Shown here: positions 19,911-62,023 of the stretch, piece after piece
Layout of the letters: each line of letters begins with the position of its first letter
Numbering within the stretch: position 1 is the first letter of the stretch
NCBI GenBank assembly: GCA_017999615.1
Contig: JAGNLM010000001.1
Location: forward strand, 264,549 to 328,548
Reading direction: 5' to 3'
DNA length: 64,000 bases
Source of the DNA: Gammaproteobacteria bacterium
Lineage (GTDB): Bacteria > Pseudomonadota > Gammaproteobacteria > JAABTG01
The notes under the pieces: model-generated
Seen by the model: only the letters and a program-made list of their open reading frames with translations
Databases searched by the model: none
What the model was told of the DNA's origin: nothing
Program-made: the position numbers and the translations under genes

Positions 19911-21293
19911 GTGGTCGTGAACGCCCTGTGGAAGCGATTCGTGGGACTGACGCTGGCGGTCCTGGTGGGCCTGGCGCCAGTGGCCCGGGCTCAGGAGGGA
20001 GGGGCCCTGTCTCAGCAGGAGCTGGACCGCATCCTCGCGCCCGTGGCCCTGTACCCGGACGCCCTCCTGTCCCAGGTCCTGATGGCCTCGACCTATCCCC
20101 TGGAGGTCGTCCAGGCGGCCCGCTGGGTCAAGGCGAACCCCGGCCTCTCCGGTGGGGCCCTGGGGCGTGCCCTGGAGGACGAGCCGTGGGACCCGAGCGT
20201 GAAGGCCCTGGCTCCCTTCCCGCAGGTCCTGGAGATGATGAGCGAGCGCCTGGAGTGGACGCAGCGGTTGGGTGACGCGGTGCTCACGGAGCAGGACCGG
20301 GTCATGGACACGGTCCAGCAGCTCAGGCGCCGTGCCCACGAGGCGGGCAACCTGGGCACGAACGACCGCCAGAAGGTGTTGGTGCAGCCGGAGGTCATCG
20401 TGATCGAGCCGGCGGACCCCGAGGTGGTCTACGTCCCGGTCTACAACCCGACCGTCGTCTATGGGGGGTGGTGGTGGCCGGTCGCCCCGTACGGGTGGTA
20501 CCCGCGGGGCTACGTCGTCAGCTCGGGCCTGGTCGCGGGCATCTCCTTCGGCCTCGGAATCGCCGTCAGCGATTACCTTTGGGGCGGGTTTGACTGGCAC
20601 CACCATTACATTCACGTCCACCGGCACCGGGACCCGGTGCGCAACGTCACCTTCAACCGGCACGTCAACCTGCACCCGGTGCTCGCCGGCGAGGCCGACG
20701 TGCGGCGTTGGCAGCACGACCCGAGCCACCGGCACGGGCTGCGCTACCGGGAGCAGCAGGCGCGCGAGCGCTTCACGGGGATCCCGGGCGCACGTCCGGG
20801 CGGGCAGTCCGCCCGGCGTATGGACGCGCAGCACCTGCAGCAGAGGCTGGGGGGTCCGCGGGTCGACGGGGGGCTGCAGCCCGAGCGGCCCCGCTCGTGG
20901 CAGACCGGCCGGACGCTGGACCGCTCCGTAGCGCGGGACCGCTCCGCGACGCCGGACCGCTCCGTAGCGCGGGACCGCCCCGCGACGCCGGACCGCTCCG
21001 TAGCGCGGGACCGCCCCGCGACTACGGACCGCTCCCCGCGCGTGGACCGGTCCGTGGTTCGGGAGCGGAGCGTCGGCGGATCCGCGGTGAACCCCGGTCG
21101 CCCGATGCCGGGGGCCGCCTTTGACGGCTCGCGGCCGGGTGGAGCGCGCGTGGCACCCAGTGGCGGCACGGCGGGGCGGGGAGGGAGCCCCCAGGGGTTC
21201 ACTGGGGGTTCCCAGGGGTTCCCCGGGCGCTCGGGGCAGGAGCCCGCTCAGGGTCACGGGGGTCACGGCGGGCGAGGGTGGCAGGTGAGGTAG
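19911..21293 (+). CDS. DUF3300-family secreted protein with C-terminal Arg/Pro-rich 12-aa tandem repeats
   Basis: Signal peptide (..LTLAVLVGLAPVARAQE), then the DUF3300 signature (..LDRILAPVALYPDALLSQVLMASTYPLEVVQAARWV..) and a Trp/Tyr/His-rich segment (GGWWWPVAPYGWYP.., DWHHHYIHVHRHRD). Three copies of PDRSVARDR[PS]AT at nt ~20917-21040. GTG start. Confidence 0.7.
   Translation: MVVNALWKRFVGLTLAVLVGLAPVARAQEGGALSQQELDRILAPVALYPDALLSQVLMASTYPLEVVQAARWVKANPGLSGGALGRALEDEPWDPSVKALAPFPQVLEMMSERLEWTQRLGDAVLTEQDRVMDTVQQLRRRAHEAGNLGTNDRQKVLVQPEVIVIEPADPEVVYVPVYNPTVVYGGWWWPVAPYGWYPRGYVVSSGLVAGISFGLGIAVSDYLWGGFDWHHHYIHVHRHRDPVRNVTFNRHVNLHPVLAGEADVRRWQHDPSHRHGLRYREQQARERFTGIPGARPGGQSARRMDAQHLQQRLGGPRVDGGLQPERPRSWQTGRTLDRSVARDRSATPDRSVARDRPATPDRSVARDRPATTDRSPRVDRSVVRERSVGGSAVNPGRPMPGAAFDGSRPGGARVAPSGGTAGRGGSPQGFTGGSQGFPGRSGQEPAQGHGGHGGRGWQVR
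20917..21040 (+). repeat. Intragenic 36-bp tandem repeat (x3.3) encoding PDRSVARDR(P/S)AT
   Basis: ggaccgctccgtagcgcgggaccgc(c/t)ccgcgac(g/t)cc repeated head-to-tail inside the DUF3300 gene. Confidence 0.8.
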
Positions 21294-21496: not shown

Positions 21497-22654
21497 CTAC
21501 TCCCGGCAGAACCTCTCGATCAGTGCCCCCAGCAGCCCCACGGTCCGGGGAACCCGCTCGAGCGCGAGGTACTCGTCCGGCTGGTGGGCCTGGGCGATGT
21601 CCCCCGGACCCCAGACGACCGTCTCCATGCCGAGGGCGGTCAGGTAGGGCGCCTCTGTCCCGAAGGCCGCCGCGCCCGCCGGATAACCCGTCAGATCCTC
21701 GAGGGCCCGGACGAGTACGGAGGCCGCCGGGGTCTCCATCGCCTCGATCCCGGCGAAGAGCGGCCGGGTCTCCCAGGCGAGCCCCCGAGCCGCCGCGACC
21801 CTCTCCACCCGGCGTCGGAGCTCGGCGCGCAGGTCGGCCAAGCGCATCCCGGGCAGTGGCCTCAGGTCGAGGTGCAGCTCGCACTCCCCGCAGATCCGGT
21901 TGGGGTTGTCCCCGCCCCAGATGCGGCCCAGGTTCATGGTGGGCACGGGCACGGCGAAGGTGTCGTCGCGGTGCGCGGCCTGGAGCTCGGTGCGCCAGGC
22001 GAGCAGTTCCGACAGGAGACTGTGCATCCCCTCGAGCGCCGAGTTGCCGAGCGCCGGGTCGCTCGAGTGGCCCGCGCGGCCCACCAGGCGCACCGCCTCC
22101 ATCAGGATGCCCTTGTGCATCCGGACCGGGACGAGGCCGGTCGGCTCGCCGATGACGGCGTAACGCCCCAGGGGGCGTCCGCTCTCGGCGAGCGTGATGG
22201 CCCCGCACATGGACGATTCCTCGTCCGCCGTGGCGAGCAGCACCAGCGGGCGCGCGAGAGGGCTTGGCCCCAGGCCTCTCGCCGCCTCGAGGGCGAGCGC
22301 GAAGAAGGCCTTCATGTCGGCGATCCCAAGCCCGTACAGGCGACCGCCGTCTTGCGTCAGCCGGAAGGGGTCGTGGCGCCACTGCCCCTCGTCGTAGGGC
22401 ACCGTGTCCGTGTGACCGGCGAGCACCAGCCCATTCCCCCCCTGGCCCAGGGTCGCCACGAGGTTCCGCTTGCCGGGGTGGCCGGGCAGGTCCCGGACCT
22501 CCACGGTGAAGCCCAGTCCCTCGGCCCATTCCGCGAGCAGGGCGATGACCGCTGCGTTGCTCTGGTCGAAGGCGGGGCTGACGCTGCTCACCGAGGGCGT
22601 GGCCACCAGCCGTGCCATCATCTCCATCACGTCGGGTGTCGCGCGGTGCATCCG
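21497..22654 (-). CDS. argE: Acetylornithine deacetylase (M20 family)
   Basis: ..LLAGHTDTVPYDEGQWRHDPFRLTQDGGRLYGLGIADMKAFFA.. and ..NRICGECELHLDLRPLPGM.. match ArgE almost motif-for-motif. The remainder of the 839-aa track ORF (22655..24016) is an antisense artefact over the GNAT gene. Confidence 0.85.
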   Translation of the reverse strand, partial: RMHRATPDVMEMMARLVATPSVSSVSPAFDQSNAAVIALLAEWAEGLGFTVEVRDLPGHPGKRNLVATLGQGGNGLVLAGHTDTVPYDEGQWRHDPFRLTQDGGRLYGLGIADMKAFFALALEAARGLGPSPLARPLVLLATADEESSMCGAITLAESGRPLGRYAVIGEPTGLVPVRMHKGILMEAVRLVGRAGHSSDPALGNSALEGMHSLLSELLAWRTELQAAHRDDTFAVPVPTMNLGRIWGGDNPNRICGECELHLDLRPLPGMRLADLRAELRRRVERVAAARGLAWETRPLFAGIEAMETPAASVLVRALEDLTGYPAGAAAFGTEAPYLTALGMETVVWGPGDIAQAHQPDEYLALERVPRTVGLLGALIERFCRE

Positions 22655-22756: not shown

Positions 22757-24022
22757 ATGAAGGGCGTCGTCCCGCCGCGGCCGCGAAGCGACCCGAGCCC
22801 CATGCCCATACCTGCACCCGCATCCGCACCCGCACCCGTACCGACACCTGCCGTGACGCCTGCCCCCGGCACCCCGCCGGCCCCCGCGCGCCGGGTCCAG
22901 GAAGGCCGTCCGCCCTGCGAGATCCGGCGCGCGTCGCTCGCGGACGCGCCGGCCCTGGTGGCCATCGAGCAGGCGACCTTCAAGGGCGACCGGATCAGCC
23001 GGCGGCAATTCCGCTACCTGTTGGCCCGTGGCAACTCGGAGACGCTCGTCTGCGAGCGCGACGGCCGGCTCGTCGCGTACGTCCTGGTGCTGTTCTCGAA
23101 GGCCACTTCCACGGCCCGGCTGTACTCCATCGCCGTCATGCCCGAGTACGGTGGCCAGGGCATCGGGCGGGCCCTCGTGGGAGCGGCCGAGGCGGCGGCG
23201 CAGAGCCGGGAGCGGGCCTACATGCGCCTGGAGATCCGCCGCGACAACGCCCCGTCGCGAGGTCTCTTCGAGTCGTTGGGATACCGCGAGCTCGGGGTCT
23301 ACGACGATTACTATGAGGACCACATGCAGGCCGTGCGCTACGAGAAGTCGCTCGCGCCGCACCTGAACCCGGACCTCGGTCGCGTCCCCTATTACGAGCA
23401 GACGCTCGACTTCACCTGCGGGGCCTCCTCGCTGATGATGGCGATGAAGGCGATCTCGCCCCCGCTGCCGCTCGACCGCACGCTGGAGCTGCGGATCTGG
23501 CGCGAGGCCACGACCATCTTCATGACCTCGGGGCACGGCGGGTGCGGACCGTACGGGCTCGCCCTGTCGGCCCTGCGCCGGGGATTCCGCGTCGAGGTCT
23601 TCGTCAACGACGAGGGCGTGCCGCTGGTCGACTCGGTCCGCAGCCCCGAGAAGAAGGAGGTCATGCGCCTGGTCCACGAGGACTTCATCGGGGAGTGCCG
23701 GCGCCGCGGCATCCCCATCCAGCACGGCACGCTCTCGGTCGCCGAGCTGCGCGAGCGATTCCGGGCCGGCGGGATCCCGCTGGTGCTGATCAGCTCGTAC
23801 CGCATCTACGAGGAGAAGTTTCCCCACTGGGTCGTGGTCACCGGGTTCGACGACCACTTCGTGTACGCCCACGACCCCTACGTCGACTACGCGGAGGGCG
23901 AGCGCCAGGTCGACAGCATCAACATGCCGATCCCCCACCGGGAGTTCGCGCACATGGCCCGCTACGGGCGCGCGGGCCTGCAGGCGGTGGTGATCGTTTA
24001 CCGGAACGAGGGCCATGGCTGA
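22757..24022 (+). CDS. Two-domain protein: GNAT N-acetyltransferase (RimI-like) fused to a papain-like / peptidase-C39-like cysteine peptidase domain, with a Pro/Ala-rich N-terminal leader
   Basis: GNAT: ..LVAIEQATFKGD.. and ..YSIAVMPEYGGQGIGRALVGAAEAAAQSRERAYMRLEIRRDNAPSRGLFESLGY.. (acetyl-CoA-binding Q/RxxGxG/A motif). C-domain: ..YYEQTLDFTCGASSLMMAMKAI.. (candidate catalytic Cys) and ..FPHWVVVTGFDDHFVYAHDPY.. (candidate His/Asp). The stop overlaps the next gene's ATG (ATGGCTGA). Confidence 0.7.
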   Translation: MKGVVPPRPRSDPSPMPIPAPASAPAPVPTPAVTPAPGTPPAPARRVQEGRPPCEIRRASLADAPALVAIEQATFKGDRISRRQFRYLLARGNSETLVCERDGRLVAYVLVLFSKATSTARLYSIAVMPEYGGQGIGRALVGAAEAAAQSRERAYMRLEIRRDNAPSRGLFESLGYRELGVYDDYYEDHMQAVRYEKSLAPHLNPDLGRVPYYEQTLDFTCGASSLMMAMKAISPPLPLDRTLELRIWREATTIFMTSGHGGCGPYGLALSALRRGFRVEVFVNDEGVPLVDSVRSPEKKEVMRLVHEDFIGECRRRGIPIQHGTLSVAELRERFRAGGIPLVLISSYRIYEEKFPHWVVVTGFDDHFVYAHDPYVDYAEGERQVDSINMPIPHREFAHMARYGRAGLQAVVIVYRNEGHG

Positions 24023-25496
24023 GCACGTCCTGCTGGTCGAGCACGCCTCCGATTGGAAGGCGCACTACCCGAGCCTTCCCGTCATCTCCGCGCGGGATTA
24101 CCTGAACCGCCCCGAGTGGTCGGCGCGCAAGCAGATGCGCGTCATCAACCTCTGCCGCAGCTATCGCTACCTGTCCGTCGGGTACTACTGCTCGCTGCTC
24201 GCCGAGGCCCGGGGCCACAAGGTCGTGCCCACGGTGCGCACGATCCAGGACCTCTCGCGCCGCTCCATCTACAGCCTCTCGACCGAGGACCTGGACAGCC
24301 ATGTGCAGAAGATCCTCGGCCGGCGGAAATCGACCCTGCAGCCCACCGCTTACGAGATCACGATCTGCTTCGGTCACACCGAGGTGAAGGAGCTGCGGGA
24401 CATCGCGCGGCAGATCTTCGAGGCCTTCCGCTGCCCGCTGCTGCGCGTGGAGTTCGGGCTGGTGCAGGGTGCGTGGCGGATCGACGAGGTCCGTGCGGTG
24501 CCCGTCAACACGCTCTCCCCCTCCCAGGAGCAGGGATTCTTCGCCGCGCTCGACGGCTACCTCTCGCAGCGCTGGCGCCAGCCCCGGGCGCGCCACCGGT
24601 TCAAGTACGAGCTGGCCGTGCTGCACGACCCCGACGAGTCGATGCCGCCCTCGAACGCGCAGGCTTTGAAGGGGCTCGTCGCCGCAGGGCGCGATCTCGG
24701 CGTGGACGTGGACCTGATCACCCGCAAGGACTACGGCCGGCTCGCGGAATACGACGCGCTGTTCATTCGCGAGACGACCCAGATCAACCACCACACCTAC
24801 CGCTTCGCCAAGAAGGCCGAGAGCGAGGGCATGGTGGTGCTGGACGACCCCGATTCCATCCTGCGCTGCACGAACAAGGTCTACCTCGCGGAACTGCTCC
24901 AGGCCAACCGGGTGCCGACCCCGAAGACCGAGATCGTGCGCCGCGAGAGCCTGGACGAGCTGGAAGCGGAGATCCCGTACCCCATCGTGCTGAAGATCCC
25001 GGACGGCTCGTTTTCCCGCGGGGTCTTCAAGGCCGACAACCGCGCGGAGCTGCAGCGGATCGCGGGCCGGCTGTTCAAGGACTCGGACCTGATCCTGGCC
25101 CAGGAATTCCTCTACACCGACTACGACTGGCGGGTGGGGGTCCTGTCGCGCAAGCCGATCTTCGTCTGCCGCTACTACATGTCGGAGCGGCACTGGAAGA
25201 TCGTCAACCACGACGTCAAGGGCCGCCCAAAGGAGGGCGGTTTCGAGACGCTGCGCGTGGAAGATGCCCCGCCCGAGGTCGTGAAGACGGCCCTGCGGGC
25301 GGCCAACCTGATCGGCGACGGGCTCTACGGGGTGGACCTGAAGCAGACCCACAAGGGTGTCGTGGTCATCGAGGTGAACGACAACCCGAGCATCGACGCC
25401 GGGGTCGAGGACAAGGTGCTGAAGGACGAGCTCTACCGGACCCTCATCGCCGACTTCGTGGAGCGCCTGGACCGCCGCCGCGGGGCAGGCGGCTAG
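24015..25496 (+). CDS. RimK-like ATP-grasp amidoligase with N-terminal RLAN (RimK-like ATP-grasp N-terminal) domain
   Basis: C-terminal ATP-grasp core (..IVLKIPDGSFSRGVFKADN.., ..LILAQEFLYTDYDWRVGVL.., ..GLYGVDLKQTHKGVVVIEVNDNPS..). It is preceded by a ~200-aa N-domain (MAEHVLLVEHASDWKAHYPSLPVISARDYLNRPEWSARKQMRVINLCRSYRYLSVGYYCSLLAEARGHKVVPT..) characteristic of the RLAN family. It is translationally coupled to the upstream GNAT-peptidase gene. Confidence 0.8.
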   Translation: MAEHVLLVEHASDWKAHYPSLPVISARDYLNRPEWSARKQMRVINLCRSYRYLSVGYYCSLLAEARGHKVVPTVRTIQDLSRRSIYSLSTEDLDSHVQKILGRRKSTLQPTAYEITICFGHTEVKELRDIARQIFEAFRCPLLRVEFGLVQGAWRIDEVRAVPVNTLSPSQEQGFFAALDGYLSQRWRQPRARHRFKYELAVLHDPDESMPPSNAQALKGLVAAGRDLGVDVDLITRKDYGRLAEYDALFIRETTQINHHTYRFAKKAESEGMVVLDDPDSILRCTNKVYLAELLQANRVPTPKTEIVRRESLDELEAEIPYPIVLKIPDGSFSRGVFKADNRAELQRIAGRLFKDSDLILAQEFLYTDYDWRVGVLSRKPIFVCRYYMSERHWKIVNHDVKGRPKEGGFETLRVEDAPPEVVKTALRAANLIGDGLYGVDLKQTHKGVVVIEVNDNPSIDAGVEDKVLKDELYRTLIADFVERLDRRRGAGG

Positions 25497-27754
25497 GCGG
25501 CCGACTTCAGCGGCCGGATCAGGTTGCCGAGGCCCGCGTCCTTGAGGGCCGCGTGCACCAGCAGGCGCACCGCAAACGCCTCTTCGAGCTGGAGGGCCTC
25601 CTGGAGCAGTTCGCGCGCGTGGTCCCGGGTGAAGCTGCGCACGACCCACTTGACGCGCGGCAGGCTCGAGGCCGCCATGCTCATGCTGTCCACGCCCATG
25701 CCGAGCAGGAGCAGGGCGGATGCCGGGTCGCCCGCCATCTCCCCGCACACTCCGACGCGTGTGCCGGTCCGGTGGCTCTCTTCGACCACCCAGTTGACCG
25801 TCTGGATGACCGCGGGGTGCAGGGCGTCGTAGAGCGCCGCGACGCGTGCGTTGTTGCGGTCGACCGCCAGCAGGTACTGGATCAGGTCGTTGGTGCCGAT
25901 GGACAGGAAGTCGGCCCGGCGCGCGAGCGCCGCCGTCTGCAGGGCGGCCGCGGGCACCTCCACCATCACGCCCACCGGCGGGCGCGAGACCGCGCGGCCC
26001 TCCTCGCGCAGCTCCGCGACGGTGCGGTCGACGATCGCGAGGGCCTCGTCGACCTCCCGCACGTGGCTCACCATGGGTAACAGGATCTGCAGGTTGTCGA
26101 AGGAGATGTTCGCCCGCAGCATGGCGCGCAGCTGGGTGTGGAAGATCTCGGGCTGGTCGAGGGTGATCCGTATCCCTCGCCAGCCGAGGAACGGGTTGTC
26201 TTCCTCGATGGCGAAGTAGGGCAGGGTCTTGTCGCCGCCGACGTCGAGCGTGCGCATCACCACCGGCCTCGGGGCGAGCGCGGCCAGCACGTGGCGGTAG
26301 TTGCGGAACAGCTCCTCCTCGCTCGGGAAGGCGTGGCGGATCATGTAGGGGAACTCGGTGCGGTAGAGCCCGACCCCTTCGGCGCCGCTCTCGAGGCCCA
26401 GTTGGATGTCGGCCACCAGTCCCGTGTTGACCTGGAGCTCCACCGAGTGGCCGTCGGGGGTGCGCGCGGGCAGGTCCCTCAGCTCGCGCAGCCCCGCGGC
26501 CAGGACCTCCTCGTCCCGCAGCAGGCGCTCGAATTCCACCACCACCCGGCGGTGCGGGCGCACGTAGACCCGTCCCTGGTAGCCGTCGACGACGACCGGC
26601 GCGCCGTCGATGCGTCCGATGGGCAGGTCGCCGAGGCCCATCACCGCCGGCACGCCGAGGGCGCGGGCCAGTATCGCGGTGTGGGAGAGCACCGAGCCGC
26701 GGCTGCAGAGCACACCGGCCAACCGGCCGGCAGGGACCTCCGCGAGGTCCGCCGCGGTGATCTCCTCGCCCACCAGCACGCAGCGCTCGGGGTAGCGGCG
26801 CGGCTCCCGGGCCTCGGACTGCAGGGCCACCAGCACGCGCCGGCCGATGTCGCGCAGGTCGCCGGCGCGCGTGCGCAGATACTCGTCGTTCATCTGCTCG
26901 AAGGCCCGCACGTGCTCCATCACCGTGTCGCGCCAGGCGGCCGGGGCCCAGCTCCCGGCGCGGATGCGGCGCACGGTGGGCTCCACCAGCTGCTTGCTGT
27001 CGAGCAGGAGGGCGAAGACGTCGAACAGTGAGCGCTCCTCCCGGGGCAGGAGGGTGGACATGCGGTCGCCCAGGCTGCGCAGCTCGTCCTGGACCCGCTC
27101 GACCGCGGTGAGGAACAGCTCGGCCTCGGCGTTGGGGTCCGTCGCCGGGCGGTCGGGCACGTCCGAGAGACGGGCGAGGGGATGGCTGACGGCGACGGTC
27201 CCGATGGCGACGCCCGGGGCCCCGGCAACGCCCTGCACGAAGCTCGTGCCCACCCCGATCCTGCCAATCCCGCCGGTGGTGCGTGCGGACCGGATCGCGC
27301 CGGCGAGCTGCGCGGCGACCGCCACCATGAACGCCGCCTCACTGGGATTGAACAGGCGGTGCCCGCGCTGCTGGGCGACCAGCACGCCCAGGACTTCCCG
27401 GTAGTGGACGATGGGCACGCCGAGGAAGCCGTGAAAGCGTTCCTCGCAAGTCTGGGGACAGGGCACGTAGCGGGGGTGGGCCCCGGCGTTCTCCAGGTTG
27501 ACCGGCTCCTTGCGCTCGGCGACGAATCCGACCAGGCCCTCGCCCGGCGCCAGGCGAACCCGCCCCTCGCAGCCGGGGGGGAGTCCTTCGGTCGCCATCA
27601 GGACCATCTCGCCGCTGGCGTCGTCGCGCAGGAACACCGCGCAGGCGTCCACCTCGAGGGCCTCCCTGACCTGGTGCACGATCAGGGGCAACGCTTCGTC
27701 GAGGTTTTCGGCTGTGGAGACGTCCTGGACCAGGCGGCGGAGGGGCTCGAGCAT
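25493..27754 (-). CDS. ptsP: Phosphoenolpyruvate-protein phosphotransferase PtsP (EI-Ntr; GAF + Enzyme I domains)
   Basis: N-terminal GAF (MLEPLRRLVQDVSTAENLDEALPLIVHQVREALEVDACAVFLRDD..), then EI (..GGRTSHAAILARALGIPAV-like ..SHTAILARALGVPAVMG.., ..CGEMAGDP..). 753 aa. Confidence 0.9.
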   Translation of the reverse strand: MLEPLRRLVQDVSTAENLDEALPLIVHQVREALEVDACAVFLRDDASGEMVLMATEGLPPGCEGRVRLAPGEGLVGFVAERKEPVNLENAGAHPRYVPCPQTCEERFHGFLGVPIVHYREVLGVLVAQQRGHRLFNPSEAAFMVAVAAQLAGAIRSARTTGGIGRIGVGTSFVQGVAGAPGVAIGTVAVSHPLARLSDVPDRPATDPNAEAELFLTAVERVQDELRSLGDRMSTLLPREERSLFDVFALLLDSKQLVEPTVRRIRAGSWAPAAWRDTVMEHVRAFEQMNDEYLRTRAGDLRDIGRRVLVALQSEAREPRRYPERCVLVGEEITAADLAEVPAGRLAGVLCSRGSVLSHTAILARALGVPAVMGLGDLPIGRIDGAPVVVDGYQGRVYVRPHRRVVVEFERLLRDEEVLAAGLRELRDLPARTPDGHSVELQVNTGLVADIQLGLESGAEGVGLYRTEFPYMIRHAFPSEEELFRNYRHVLAALAPRPVVMRTLDVGGDKTLPYFAIEEDNPFLGWRGIRITLDQPEIFHTQLRAMLRANISFDNLQILLPMVSHVREVDEALAIVDRTVAELREEGRAVSRPPVGVMVEVPAAALQTAALARRADFLSIGTNDLIQYLLAVDRNNARVAALYDALHPAVIQTVNWVVEESHRTGTRVGVCGEMAGDPASALLLLGMGVDSMSMAASSLPRVKWVVRSFTRDHARELLQEALQLEEAFAVRLLVHAALKDAGLGNLIRPLKSAA

Positions 27755-61936: not shown

Positions 61937-62023
61937 TGGTGCCGGAGAGAGGACTTGAACCTCCACGGGGTTACCCCCACTAGTACCTGAAACTAGCGCG
62001 TCTACCAATTCCGCCACCCCGGC
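61937..62023 (-). tRNA. tRNA-Leu (anticodon CAG), class II with long variable arm
   Basis: Minus-strand sequence GCCGGGGTGGCGGAATTGGTAGACGCGCTAGTTTCAGGTACTAGTGGGGGTAACCCCGTGGAGGTTCAAGTCCTCTCTCCGGCACCA. The 7-bp acceptor stem (one G-U), the 5-bp anticodon stem CTAGT/ACTAG with loop TTCAGGT (anticodon CAG), the long variable arm, the TPsiC loop TTCAAGT and the encoded CCA all fit. Confidence 0.88.

What the first reader, a model, noticed from the sequence alone, without database searches (positions are those of the whole stretch)
22757..25496. Translationally coupled GNAT-(papain/C39-like peptidase) fusion + RLAN-ATP-grasp (RimK-like) pair: a predicted peptide-tagging / peptide-ligase module with no experimentally defined function
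The two genes overlap by 8 nt (ATGGCTGA) and lie between argE and ptsP, with no ribosomal-protein S6 context.
- Gene 1 fuses an acetyl-CoA-type GNAT to a C-terminal domain with papain-like architecture. The GNAT carries ..YGGQGIGRAL.. The C-domain has a candidate nucleophile in ..DFTCGASSLMMA.. and His/Asp candidates in ..FPHWVVVTGFDDHFVYAHDPY..
- Gene 2 is a RimK-type ATP-grasp (..IVLKIPDGSFSRGVF.., ..VIEVNDNPS..) preceded by the ~200-aa RLAN N-domain.
- RimK itself adds poly-Glu tails to S6. Comparative genomics has predicted that RLAN-ATP-grasp plus GNAT/peptidase neighbourhoods ligate amino acids or peptides onto a target and then trim or acetylate them. To my knowledge no substrate or product has been demonstrated.
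- The GNAT protein also has a 50-aa Pro/Ala-rich leader (..PMPIPAPASAPAPVPTPAVTPAPGTPPAPA) encoded by a CCGCACCCG-like DNA repeat.
Basis: partly seen in the sequence, partly recalled or inferred. Interest (0 to 1): 0.75.

Follow-up and report, generated by a model that had tools for sequence, protein, structure and literature searches.

The report
Uncharacterised acetyltransferase-peptidase plus peptide-ligase gene pair
Two overlapping genes encode an acetyltransferase fused to a papain-like cysteine peptidase and a RimK-like ATP-dependent peptide ligase with an extra N-terminal domain; the pair is conserved in hundreds of bacterial species, was predicted from genomics years ago, and still has no known substrate or product.

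Summary
Gene 1 (22757-24022) is a RimI-like GNAT fused to a DUF3335 papain/C39-like domain. Its Gln-Cys-His-Asp catalytic set is kept in 78-82 of 82 diverse relatives, and its model matches cysteine peptidase folds. Gene 2 (24015-25496) is an RLAN domain plus an ATP-grasp ligase closest to RimK, ArgX and LysX, but it is not orthologous to any of them. The genes overlap by ATGGCTGA.

In 80 species genomes the ligase sits next to the GNAT-peptidase in 75. In 31 of 71 same-strand pairs the genes overlap. One lineage has the same system split into three coupled genes (GNAT | DUF3335 | RLAN-ligase). No third gene is consistently linked; bona fide argE lies upstream in 26 of 80.

The linkage is not universal. 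More distant DUF3335 proteins stand alone or follow peptide ABC importers, and a Pseudomonas aeruginosa RLAN-ligase (probably PA1345) lacks the partner.

I found no experimental work. My best guess (about 0.4) is a cytoplasmic make-cap-trim module for a small N-acetylated, probably glutamate-containing, peptide. Protein C-terminal tagging is the main rival.

This is a genuine but already catalogued "conserved unknown": moderately interesting, not new in kind.

The parts
22757..24022 (+). Gene 1: GNAT-DUF3335 fusion protein, 421 aa
   Evidence: ORF and translation; Pfam. 4974 homologues reached E<=1e-3 among the 8000 candidates scored. AF2 model has mean pLDDT 81.7.
22757..22906 (+). Pro/Ala-rich N-terminal tail (aa 1-50); contains an ACCCGC x5.5 repeat at 22810-22842
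   Evidence: pLDDT below 50. Absent or different in most homologues. TRF score 45. Alternative in-frame starts exist at ATG 22802 and GTG 22853 (read).
22919..23356 (+). GNAT acetyltransferase domain (aa ~55-200), RimI/NatA-like
23150..23167 (+). Acetyl-CoA pyrophosphate-binding motif A (aa 132-137, GGQGIG). The first position is Gly here, but Arg in 41 of 43 close homologues
   Evidence: Column counts on A1 and A3.
23384..23998 (+). DUF3335 papain/C39-like cysteine peptidase domain (aa 210-414)
23399..23419 (+). Gln215 (oxyanion-hole candidate) and Cys221 (nucleophile candidate) in YYEQTLDFTCG
   Evidence: Gln in 81/82 and Cys in 78/82 diverse representatives. The Gln-to-Cys spacing of 6 matches papain Gln19/Cys25 (textbook knowledge).
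23825..23875 (+). His357 (FPHW) and Asp373 (HDP), the rest of the catalytic set
   Evidence: His in 81/82 and Asp in 82/82. The spacing of 16 matches papain His159/Asn175 (textbook knowledge).
24015..24022 (+). 8-nt overlap ATGGCTGA between the gene 1 stop and the gene 2 start (translational coupling)
   Evidence: Sequence. The same -8 overlap occurs in 14 of 71 same-strand loci, -4 in 12 and -1 in 3.
24015..25496 (+). Gene 2: RLAN-ATP-grasp ligase, 493 aa
   Evidence: ORF; Pfam. Homologues are 62-98% identical across Chromatiales, Ectothiorhodospiraceae and Competibacteraceae. AF2 pLDDT 77.
24090..24545 (+). RLAN domain (aa 26-177), function unknown
   Evidence: PF14401 at 5.5e-54. An RLAN profile finds no PDB sequence relative even at E<=10.
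24147..24230 (+). Almost invariant RLAN motif NLCRSYRYLSVGYYCSLLAEARGHKVVP (aa 45-72)
   Evidence: Invariant columns in A2 and A4.
24600..25424 (+). ATP-grasp ligase module (aa ~196-470), with Lys327, Gln363, Glu364, Arg373, Asp441, Glu453 and Asn455
21497..22648 (-). argE (acetylornithine deacetylase), divergent neighbour; context, with a possible but unproven link
   Evidence: NF003474 scores 518.8 bits, above its 460 cutoff. Found divergently upstream of gene 1 in 26 of 80 loci.
25493..27754 (-). ptsP (PTS-Ntr enzyme I), convergent neighbour; context only. Its stop codon overlaps the gene 2 stop within CTAG
   Evidence: NF008283 at 771 bits; sequence. A ptsP-like match occurs within the flanks of only 5 of 80 loci, two of them at 27-32% identity.

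Best explanation
The two genes form a cytoplasmic "make, cap and trim" module for a short peptide.

**Proposed steps (all inferred, none shown)**
1. The RLAN-ATP-grasp enzyme uses ATP to activate a carboxylate as an acyl-phosphate. It then joins that carboxylate to the amino group of an incoming amino acid, most likely L-glutamate, as in the RimK/LysX clade.
2. The RimI-like GNAT domain uses acetyl-CoA to acetylate an alpha-amino group. This would either make an N-acetyl amino acid primer that mimics a protein C-terminus, or cap the N-terminus of the growing chain.
3. The fused DUF3335 cysteine peptidase cleaves, releases or limits the length of the product, much as the protease RimB does for RimK.

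**What is shown and what is inferred**
- Shown: the domain identities, the intact catalytic residues, the folds, the conserved coupling and the split-gene variant.
- Inferred: that the two proteins work in one pathway, and probably as a complex, from the conserved overlap of the genes.
- Inferred: the chemistry of each step by analogy, the identity of the amino acid, the nature of the acceptor and the physiological role.

I judge a free, small N-acetylated oligopeptide to be a somewhat more likely product than a tagged protein.
For: **All three catalytic modules look active**
- The GNAT motif is largely intact.
- Gln215, Cys221, His357 and Asp373 are kept in 78-82 of 82 diverse DUF3335 domains with papain spacing, and the domain has a papain/C39-like fold.
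- The ATP-grasp ATP/Mg residues are invariant, and the fold is closest to RimK, ArgX and LysX.

**Functional linkage**
- The ligase is adjacent in 75 of 80 species genomes.
- The genes overlap in 31 of 71 same-strand pairs.
- One lineage encodes GNAT, DUF3335 and RLAN-ligase as three separate genes joined by ATGA overlaps.
- One database protein fuses DUF3335 to RLAN.

**A self-contained, non-mobile module**
- No third gene recurs apart from argE in 26 of 80.
- There are no PADLOC defence hits.
- The surroundings are housekeeping genes.

**Evidence favouring a small peptide**
- Free peptides expose both an N-terminus for the GNAT and a C-terminus for the ligase.
- Distant standalone DUF3335 genes close ABC importer operons: an ABC importer with a 545-aa substrate-binding protein in S. 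meliloti, which looks Opp/Dpp-like, and an iron-siderophore importer in Streptomyces. Two others lie next to SBP_bac_5 genes.
- Structural neighbours include Alr0975 (a phytochelatin-synthase-like protein, from my own knowledge) and PeiR, a pseudomurein endoisopeptidase.

**Precedents**
- RimB protease trims RimK products and stimulates RimK poly-alpha-glutamate synthesis (PMC11957791).
- From my own knowledge: NAT8L plus RIMKLA make N-acetyl-Asp-Glu, and Ngg (a GNAT plus ATP-grasp fusion) makes N-acetyl-Gln-Gln in an operon that also contains a peptidase.
Against: - There is no biochemical or genetic evidence of any kind.
- The three nearest structural relatives of the ligase (RimK, ArgX, LysX) all act on protein C-termini.
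- The GNAT is closest to protein N-terminal acetyltransferases.
- The highly conserved extra RLAN domain could be a module for recognising a macromolecule.
- GNAT-DUF3335 occurs without an adjacent ligase in two sampled relatives at about 40% identity. RLAN-ligase occurs without GNAT-DUF3335 in P. aeruginosa. The partners are therefore not strictly inseparable.
- In the window's own protein, Gly replaces the usual Arg at the first position of the acetyl-CoA motif.
- The importer association of distant DUF3335 genes rests on only four loci.
Confidence: 0.4

Rival explanations
1. This is a protein-tagging system. The RLAN-ATP-grasp enzyme adds a glutamate or other amino acid tail to the C-terminus or a side chain of a specific, unlinked target protein, with RLAN as the target-recognition domain. 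The peptidase erases or trims the tag, and the GNAT acetylates the target or the tag.
For: - The GNAT is closest to RimI, NatA and VipF, which are protein N-terminal acetyltransferases.
- The ligase is unusually conserved, with 70% mean column identity, and RLAN carries a nearly invariant Arg/Tyr-rich motif.
- There is a writer/eraser precedent in RimK/RimB (PMC11957791).
Against: - No candidate target gene is linked in 80 loci.
- A poly-Glu tail offers no amine for the GNAT, so the role of the fused acetyltransferase is unexplained.
- The system is not orthologous to RimK or LysX, with scores far below their cutoffs.
- Distant DUF3335 genes are associated with small-molecule importers.
Confidence: 0.25
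2. This is RiPP-like maturation of a ribosomal precursor peptide encoded elsewhere. The C39-like domain removes a leader peptide, the fused GNAT acetylates the new N-terminus, and the ATP-grasp enzyme modifies the core.
For: - Cleaving first and then acetylating is a natural logic for a peptidase-GNAT fusion.
Against: - There is no precursor gene, transporter or immunity gene in the window or recurring in 80 loci.
- The peptidase is not fused to an ABC transporter.
- The setting is housekeeping genes rather than a gene cluster.
- The ligase belongs to the RimK/LysX clade, not the microviridin/graspetide clade.
Confidence: 0.07
3. This is an arginine or nitrogen-metabolism accessory. The GNAT acetylates glutamate or a related amino acid, and the ligase and peptidase handle an N-acetyl-glutamyl intermediate. 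The function would be tied to the divergently transcribed argE.
For: - Bona fide argE lies divergently upstream of gene 1 in 26 of 80 loci spanning several gammaproteobacterial families.
- The best NCBIfam hit of the ligase is LysX, and LysX/ArgX act in lysine and arginine synthesis (my own knowledge).
- The P. aeruginosa RLAN-ligase lies near the Glu/Asp ABC importer genes and ggt.
Against: - argE is absent from two thirds of loci, and those that have it are related taxa, so inherited gene order explains it.
- No LysW-like carrier gene was noted in the window or in the crude ORF clustering of the 80 loci, although a protein of about 54 aa falls below the length thresholds used.
- The scores are far below the LysX/ArgX cutoffs.
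Confidence: 0.08

Closest known systems
RimK with its protease partner RimB (Pseudomonas RimABK; E. coli RimK)
   Same: - In both, the ligase gene is paired with a dedicated peptidase gene.
- RimB trims the RimK product and stimulates poly-alpha-glutamate synthesis, and RimB-RimK hybrid proteins exist (PMC11957791).
   Different: - The window ligase is not a RimK orthologue: 28 bits against 331 for NF007764, and 78 against 143 for TIGR00768.
- It carries an extra ~195-aa RLAN domain.
- The partner peptidase is a papain-like cysteine enzyme fused to a GNAT, not a retropepsin-like aspartic protease.
- There is no rpsF or rimA context.
LysX/ArgX (LysW-dependent lysine and arginine biosynthesis ligases)
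   Same: - They share the HW...GG segment before the C-terminal lobe.
   Different: - The score is 79.5 bits against the 275.6 cutoff of TIGR02144.
- No LysW carrier gene was seen nearby.
- LysX/ArgX have no RLAN domain.
- LysX/ArgX have no GNAT or peptidase partner.
Acetyltransferase plus RimK-like ligase routes to N-acetyl dipeptides: NAT8L + RIMKLA/B (N-acetyl-Asp-Glu) and Ngg/AsnO (N-acetyl-Gln-Gln amide). Recalled from my own knowledge, not from a paper read here
   Same: - The same pair of chemistries is used: an acetyl-CoA GNAT plus an ATP-grasp amide ligase.
- The bacterial NAGGN operon also contains a peptidase.
   Different: - TIGR03103 (Ngg) scores 32.5 bits against a 569 cutoff.
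- The architecture differs: GNAT is fused to the peptidase rather than to the ligase.
- No amidotransferase is present.
- The product here is unknown.
Peptidase C39 / C39_2 double-glycine leader peptidases and other clan CA relatives (PeiR, Alr0975 phytochelatin-synthase-like, GUCD1/PF09778)
   Same: - The Gln/Cys/His/Asp catalytic set is the same.
- DUF3335 is classified next to PF09778 and C39 in PMC10318531.
   Different: - The window domain is not fused to an ABC exporter.
- The protein is cytoplasmic.
- The Peptidase_C39_2 match is only partial (26.3 bits, aa 328-375).
- The substrate is unknown, and a transferase rather than hydrolase role is not excluded.
RimI / NatA-type N-terminal acetyltransferases
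   Same: - This is the closest GNAT subfamily by HMM, PDB sequence and fold.
- A DYY segment (aa 184-186) is conserved among relatives. From memory, RimI has a similar NYY segment; this was not aligned here.
   Different: - The score falls below the RimI equivalog cutoff (77.3 against 86.4).
- The domain is fused to a peptidase.
- The window protein has Gly instead of Arg at the first position of the CoA motif.

Membership tests
Pfam DUF3335 (PF11814, Peptidase_C39-like) | Full-length match to the family HMM above the gathering score | tested here: met
   296.5 bits against a cutoff of 25, covering profile positions 1-205 of 206.
Pfam DUF3335 (PF11814, Peptidase_C39-like) | Papain-like fold with a conserved Gln/Cys/His/Asp catalytic set | tested here: met
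   [not shown]
Pfam DUF3335 (PF11814, Peptidase_C39-like) | Peptidase (hydrolytic) activity | not testable with these tools
   No member has been assayed in any paper I could find. A transferase role is not excluded.
Pfam RLAN (PF14401) fused to a RimK-like ATP-grasp | RLAN HMM match N-terminal to an ATP-grasp domain | tested here: met
   RLAN scores 182.3 bits against 25 (aa 26-177), and RimK PF08443 scores 38.7 against 21 (aa 287-461).
Predicted GNAT-peptidase + RLAN-ATP-grasp system (comparative-genomics prediction attributed to Iyer et al. 2009, cited in PMC10318531) | Conserved adjacency of the two genes | tested here: met
   75 of 80 loci. The genes overlap in 31 of 71 same-strand pairs. 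A split three-gene variant also exists.
RimK, ribosomal protein S6--L-glutamate ligase | Score above the equivalog or subfamily cutoffs | tested here: not met
   NF007764 scores 28.2 against 331, and TIGR00768 scores 77.9 against 143.4.
RimK, ribosomal protein S6--L-glutamate ligase | ATP-grasp fold of the RimK type with ATP/Mg residues | tested here: met
   [not shown]
RimK, ribosomal protein S6--L-glutamate ligase | Glutamylation of S6 | not testable with these tools
   No rpsF, rimA or rimB lies in the neighbourhood. Activity cannot be assessed here.
LysX/ArgX | Equivalog score and a LysW carrier in the context | tested here: not met
   TIGR02144 scores 79.5 against 275.6. No LysW-like gene was noted in the window or the sampled loci; this part was only loosely tested.
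RimI (S18 alanine N-acetyltransferase) | Equivalog score | tested here: not met
   TIGR01575 scores 77.3 against 86.4, and NF007025 scores 38.2 against 173.
Peptidase C39 bacteriocin-processing domain | Fusion to, or association with, an ABC exporter and a double-glycine precursor | tested here: not met
   There is no transporter or precursor gene in the window or recurring in 80 loci. Only a partial C39_2 match was found.
N-acetylglutaminylglutamine synthetase Ngg (TIGR03103) | Equivalog score and a GNAT-ATP-grasp fusion | tested here: not met
   32.5 bits against 569. GNAT and ATP-grasp are on different polypeptides here.
Known anti-phage defence systems (PADLOC) | Any model match | tested here: not met
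   Neither protein matched any family.

The most novel reading that the evidence does not exclude
The pair is an undescribed bacterial writer-eraser-capper system for poly-amino-acid modification of an unlinked target protein or peptide. In this reading, the RLAN domain is a decayed duplicate of the N-terminal half of the ATP-grasp fold that has been re-used as the substrate- or partner-docking module.

The duplication idea rests on three weak results:
- A weak profile-profile match, with hhalign P=0.003 on 42 sequences and P=0.08 on 75 sequences.
- A colinear order of secondary-structure elements, with RLAN 1-185 matching residues 196-380.
- A marginal HMM signal over shuffled controls.
Probability: 0.2. 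Interest if true: 0.75.

Novelty: new member of a known kind. Interest (0 to 1): 0.45.

Why it matters
- **Breadth.** About 590 or more loci in species-representative genomes encode relatives of the GNAT-DUF3335 protein. Among the 80 closest, sulfur-oxidising and wastewater Gammaproteobacteria, Rhodocyclaceae and Azospirillum carry the pair, and a related RLAN-ligase occurs in P. aeruginosa.
- **Constraint.** The ligase is 62-70% identical across families, so it is under strong constraint, yet nothing is known about what it makes.
- **Possible pay-off.** Solving it would either reveal a new N-acetylated peptide metabolite, such as an osmolyte, a store or a signal, or a new bacterial protein modification with a built-in eraser.
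- **Wider annotation.** It would also assign functions to two Pfam families of unknown function: DUF3335, which is related to eukaryotic GUCD1, and RLAN.
- **What this window adds.** It adds no new architecture. Its value is as a clean, compact test case.

Tried and rejected
1. **Literature.** Ten full-text searches used DUF3335, RLAN, PF14401, the product names, combinations of RimK/GNAT/C39/papain-like/ATP-grasp, and PA1345. They found only a classification paper (PMC10318531), two transcriptome or regulon tables that list PA1345 as hypothetical (PMC12802237, PMC11643048), and the RimB paper used as an analogy. The Iyer 2009 paper (PMC3268129) is not held, so the original prediction could not be read.
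3. **A third conserved gene or a target.** Crude six-frame ORF clustering of 80 loci is noisy in high-GC DNA because of shadow ORFs. It showed nothing recurrent beyond argE.
4. **The extra 425-aa membrane protein** upstream in the split operon is lineage-specific and has no match in any other locus.
5. **Defence system:** rejected.
6. **Mobile element or plasmid cargo:** rejected. The 12 and 11 plasmid-collection matches are mostly records of about 1 Mb or more (Azospirillum, Tistrella, Streptomyces, Microvirga and an Aeromonas record the size of a chromosome); the rest are smaller plasmids.
7. **Regulatory RNA, promoter or terminator.** No Rfam hit lies near the pair, and there are no consensus promoter or terminator sites.
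8. **Bona fide RimK, LysX, RimI or Ngg membership:** tested and not met.


Full report
**1.

Gene 1 runs from 22757 to 24022 (421 aa) and gene 2 from 24015 to 25496 (493 aa), both on the + strand. The junction reads GGC CAT GGC TGA with the gene 2 ATG embedded, so the genes overlap by the 8 nt ATGGCTGA.

Pfam finds these domains:

| Protein | Domain | Residues | E-value |
|---|---|---|---|
| Gene 1 | Acetyltransf_1 (GNAT) | 82-176 | 2.5e-16 |
| Gene 1 | DUF3335 / PF11814 | 210-414 | 1.1e-88 |
| Gene 2 | RLAN / PF14401 | 26-177 | 5.5e-54 |
| Gene 2 | RimK ATP-grasp | 287-461 | 1e-9 |

The neighbours are a bona fide argE on the minus strand (518.8 bits against a 460 cutoff) and ptsP (771 bits). 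mutL, miaA, hfq, hflX and hflK follow. Identical copies of gene 1 with the same neighbouring genes occur on several wastewater-type metagenome contigs.

The Pro/Ala-rich first 50 residues and a short ACCCGC repeat are real. However, the tail is not conserved beyond the closest relatives and is modelled as disordered.

**2. Gene 1**

*GNAT domain.* It is closest to RimI and NatA-type N-terminal acetyltransferases.
- rimI TIGR01575 scores 77.3 bits, just under its 86.4 cutoff.
- PDB RimI 5isv matches at 5e-9.
- The CoA-binding motif is present, but the window protein has Gly132 where 41 of 43 close homologues have Arg.

*C-terminal domain.* It is a papain/C39-like cysteine peptidase domain.
- The AF2 model has mean pLDDT 81.7.
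- An exhaustive HMMER search found 677 clusters at the 50% identity level.
- In 82 full-length domains drawn from the best 150 of these, Gln215, Cys221, His357 and Asp373 are kept in 81, 78, 81 and 82.
- The Gln-to-Cys spacing of 6 and the His-to-Asp spacing of 16 equal those of papain (textbook knowledge).

**3. Gene 2**

The C-terminal ~300 residues form an ATP-grasp ligase.
- Its best profile match in the PDB is Thermus LysX.
- Lys327, Gln363, Arg373, Asp441, Glu453 and Asn455 are invariant in 42 homologues, and Glu364 is nearly so.
- It is not an orthologue of RimK, LysX, MptN or CofF; all score far below their cutoffs.

The N-terminal RLAN domain has no detectable relative of known structure by sequence. 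It contains an almost invariant Arg/Tyr/Cys-rich motif, NLCRSYRYLSVGYYCSLLAEARGH.

A weak profile-profile match and a colinear secondary-structure order suggest that RLAN may be a decayed copy of the N-terminal half of the ATP-grasp module (hhalign P=0.003 and P=0.08). Shuffle controls show the signal is marginal. I record this as a lead only.

**4. Linkage**

The best 80 loci are mostly Gammaproteobacteria: Chromatiales, Ectothiorhodospiraceae, Competibacteraceae, Thiohalomonadales, Sedimenticola and Thiomargarita. Some Rhodocyclaceae and Burkholderiales and Azospirillum are also present.

| Arrangement of the RLAN-ligase relative to gene 1 | Loci |
|---|---|
| Directly downstream, same strand | 71 |
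| Adjacent, opposite strand | 4 |
| Absent because the contig ends | 2 |
| Absent although flanking sequence is available | 3 |

In the 71 same-strand pairs the genes overlap in 31: by 8 nt in 14, by 4 nt in 12, by 1 nt in 3 and by longer stretches in 2. Nearly all other gaps are 61 nt or less.

The strongest single piece of evidence is a lineage (L101/L102) in which a 157-aa GNAT, a 214-aa DUF3335 protein and a 503-aa RLAN-ligase are separate genes joined by ATGA overlaps. The three modules therefore travel together whether fused or not. One database protein even joins DUF3335 to RLAN.

**5. Limits of the linkage**

- One relative at about 40% identity has the ligase adjacent and divergently oriented. 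Two others have none nearby.
- Members at 37% identity or less, whose N-terminal domain Pfam no longer recognises as a GNAT, have no ligase in the sequence available; one of these contigs ends just after the gene.
- Several distant DUF3335 genes follow importer genes. One is the last gene of an ABC importer operon with a 545-aa substrate-binding protein on an S. meliloti plasmid, which looks Opp/Dpp-like. One follows an iron-siderophore ABC importer in Streptomyces. Two lie beside SBP_bac_5 genes.
- One standalone copy lies on a phage-like contig, and some proteins carry tandem DUF3335 domains.
- Conversely, P. aeruginosa has an RLAN-ligase that is 47% identical over RLAN. It lies between pagP/SDR and an aminotransferase, near the Glu/Asp importer genes and ggt. 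By gene order, from my own knowledge, this is PA1345. No GNAT-DUF3335 gene lies beside it.
- PA1345 appears in the literature only as a hypothetical ATP-binding protein with a CpxR box (PMC12802237) and in an expression table (PMC11643048).

**6. Context**

- No third gene recurs in the 80 loci except argE, which lies divergently upstream in 26. A ptsP-like match lies within the flanks of only 5, two of them at 27-32% identity.
- There are no defence-system matches.
- Plasmid-collection hits are few and mostly on records of about 1 Mb or more.
- No Rfam element lies nearby, and there are no consensus promoter or terminator sites.
- The stop codons of gene 2 and ptsP overlap within CTAG.

The module is self-contained, cytoplasmic and chromosomal.

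**7. Mechanism**

*Shown:* three catalytically competent-looking modules (an acetyl-CoA N-acetyltransferase, a Cys-His-Asp peptidase and an ATP-grasp amide ligase) plus one unknown domain, co-inherited and translationally coupled.

*Inferred:*
- The ligase forms an acyl-phosphate and adds an amino acid, most likely glutamate, given its clade.
- The GNAT acetylates an alpha-amine.
- The peptidase cleaves or releases the product.

I favour a small free peptide (about 0.4) for four reasons:
- Only a free peptide offers both termini to the three activities.
- A poly-Glu tail on a protein gives the GNAT nothing to acetylate.
- Distant DUF3335 genes are tied to small-molecule importers.
- Acetyltransferase plus RimK-like ligase pairs that make N-acetyl dipeptides are precedented (NAT8L/RIMKLA and Ngg, from my own knowledge).

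The RimB protease precedent shows that a partner peptidase can both trim and stimulate a RimK-type ligase (PMC11957791).

Protein tagging (about 0.25) is supported by the protein-directed nature of RimK, LysX, ArgX and RimI, and by the extra, highly conserved RLAN domain. RiPP-like processing and an arginine-linked role are minor rivals.

**8. Comparison and novelty**

The pair belongs to families already in Pfam (DUF3335 and RLAN). A 2023 classification of papain-like peptidases notes that DUF3335 is often fused to GNAT domains and cites the 2009 amidoligase survey (PMC10318531). That survey itself could not be read here.

The window therefore holds a typical member of a known, computationally predicted but experimentally untouched system. 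It is not a new architecture. What this analysis adds:
- residue-level and fold-level confirmation of the peptidase;
- a quantified measure of the linkage and its limits;
- the split-operon variant;
- the importer association of distant DUF3335 genes;
- the P. aeruginosa homologue without the partner;
- the RLAN-duplication lead.

**9. Verdict**

The function is still unknown. Interest is moderate at 0.45: the system is a widespread, strongly conserved unknown with clear experiments available, but it would not surprise a specialist and is not novel in kind.

Noticed in passing
window 20912-21054 (inside ORF 19911-21293, +): A 36-nt tandem repeat (3.4 copies, 95% matches) encodes repeated DRSVARDRxATP units in the C-terminal part of a DUF3300 protein (PF11737, 8.7e-86). 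This protein lies just upstream of argE.
   Followed up: partly
window 25493-25496: The stop codons of gene 2 (+) and ptsP (-) overlap within the palindrome CTAG. The convergent genes therefore share their 3' ends, with no room for a terminator, and none was found by the consensus scan.
   Followed up: partly
window 23150-23152 (gene 1, Gly132): The first position of the GNAT acetyl-CoA motif (R/Q-x-x-G-x-G/A) is Gly in the window protein, but Arg in 41 of 43 close homologues and Arg or Gln in 34 of 53 diverse ones. This could affect cofactor binding in this lineage.
   Followed up: partly
window 24015-24599 (RLAN) against 24600-25150: RLAN aligns weakly but colinearly with the N-terminal half of its own ATP-grasp module (hhalign P=0.003 and P=0.08, with matching helix and strand order). 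For example, KELRDIARQIFEAF..LRVEF..WRI aligns with AELQRIAGRLFKDS..LAQEF..WRV. This may be a decayed internal duplication.
   Followed up: partly
L101 4257-8153 and L102 567-4463: A split version of the system has four genes in a row, the first three junctions overlapping by 4 nt: a 425-aa protein with a C-terminal membrane segment and no Pfam match, a 157-aa GNAT, a 214-aa DUF3335 protein and a 503-aa RLAN-ligase. The 425-aa protein has no relative in any other locus fetched.
   Followed up: yes
L094 6902-8491 (P. aeruginosa record NZ_CP133752.1): A 529-aa RLAN-ATP-grasp protein, which by gene order is PA1345, stands without a GNAT-DUF3335 neighbour. It is close to ggt, the Glu/Asp ABC importer genes, pagP and an aminotransferase. 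This gives a genetically tractable organism in which to study the RLAN-ligase.
   Followed up: partly
L096 5986-6654; L097 5545-6663; L089 6001-7044; L086 5860-6948: Distant DUF3335 genes that lack a recognisable GNAT sit at the end of, or beside, ABC importer genes. These are an ABC importer with a 545-aa substrate-binding protein (looks Opp/Dpp-like), an iron-siderophore importer and SBP_bac_5 genes. This hints that the ancestral role is cytoplasmic cleavage of imported small peptides or peptide-like compounds.
   Followed up: partly
L098 6001-6618: A standalone 205-aa DUF3335 gene lies on a phage-like contig among HNH, RNA ligase, Phage_L5_gp82 and T4 Y00F-like genes.
   Followed up: no
window 61940-62023 (-): The only Rfam gathering-level hit in the 64-kb window is a single tRNA gene.
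   Followed up: no
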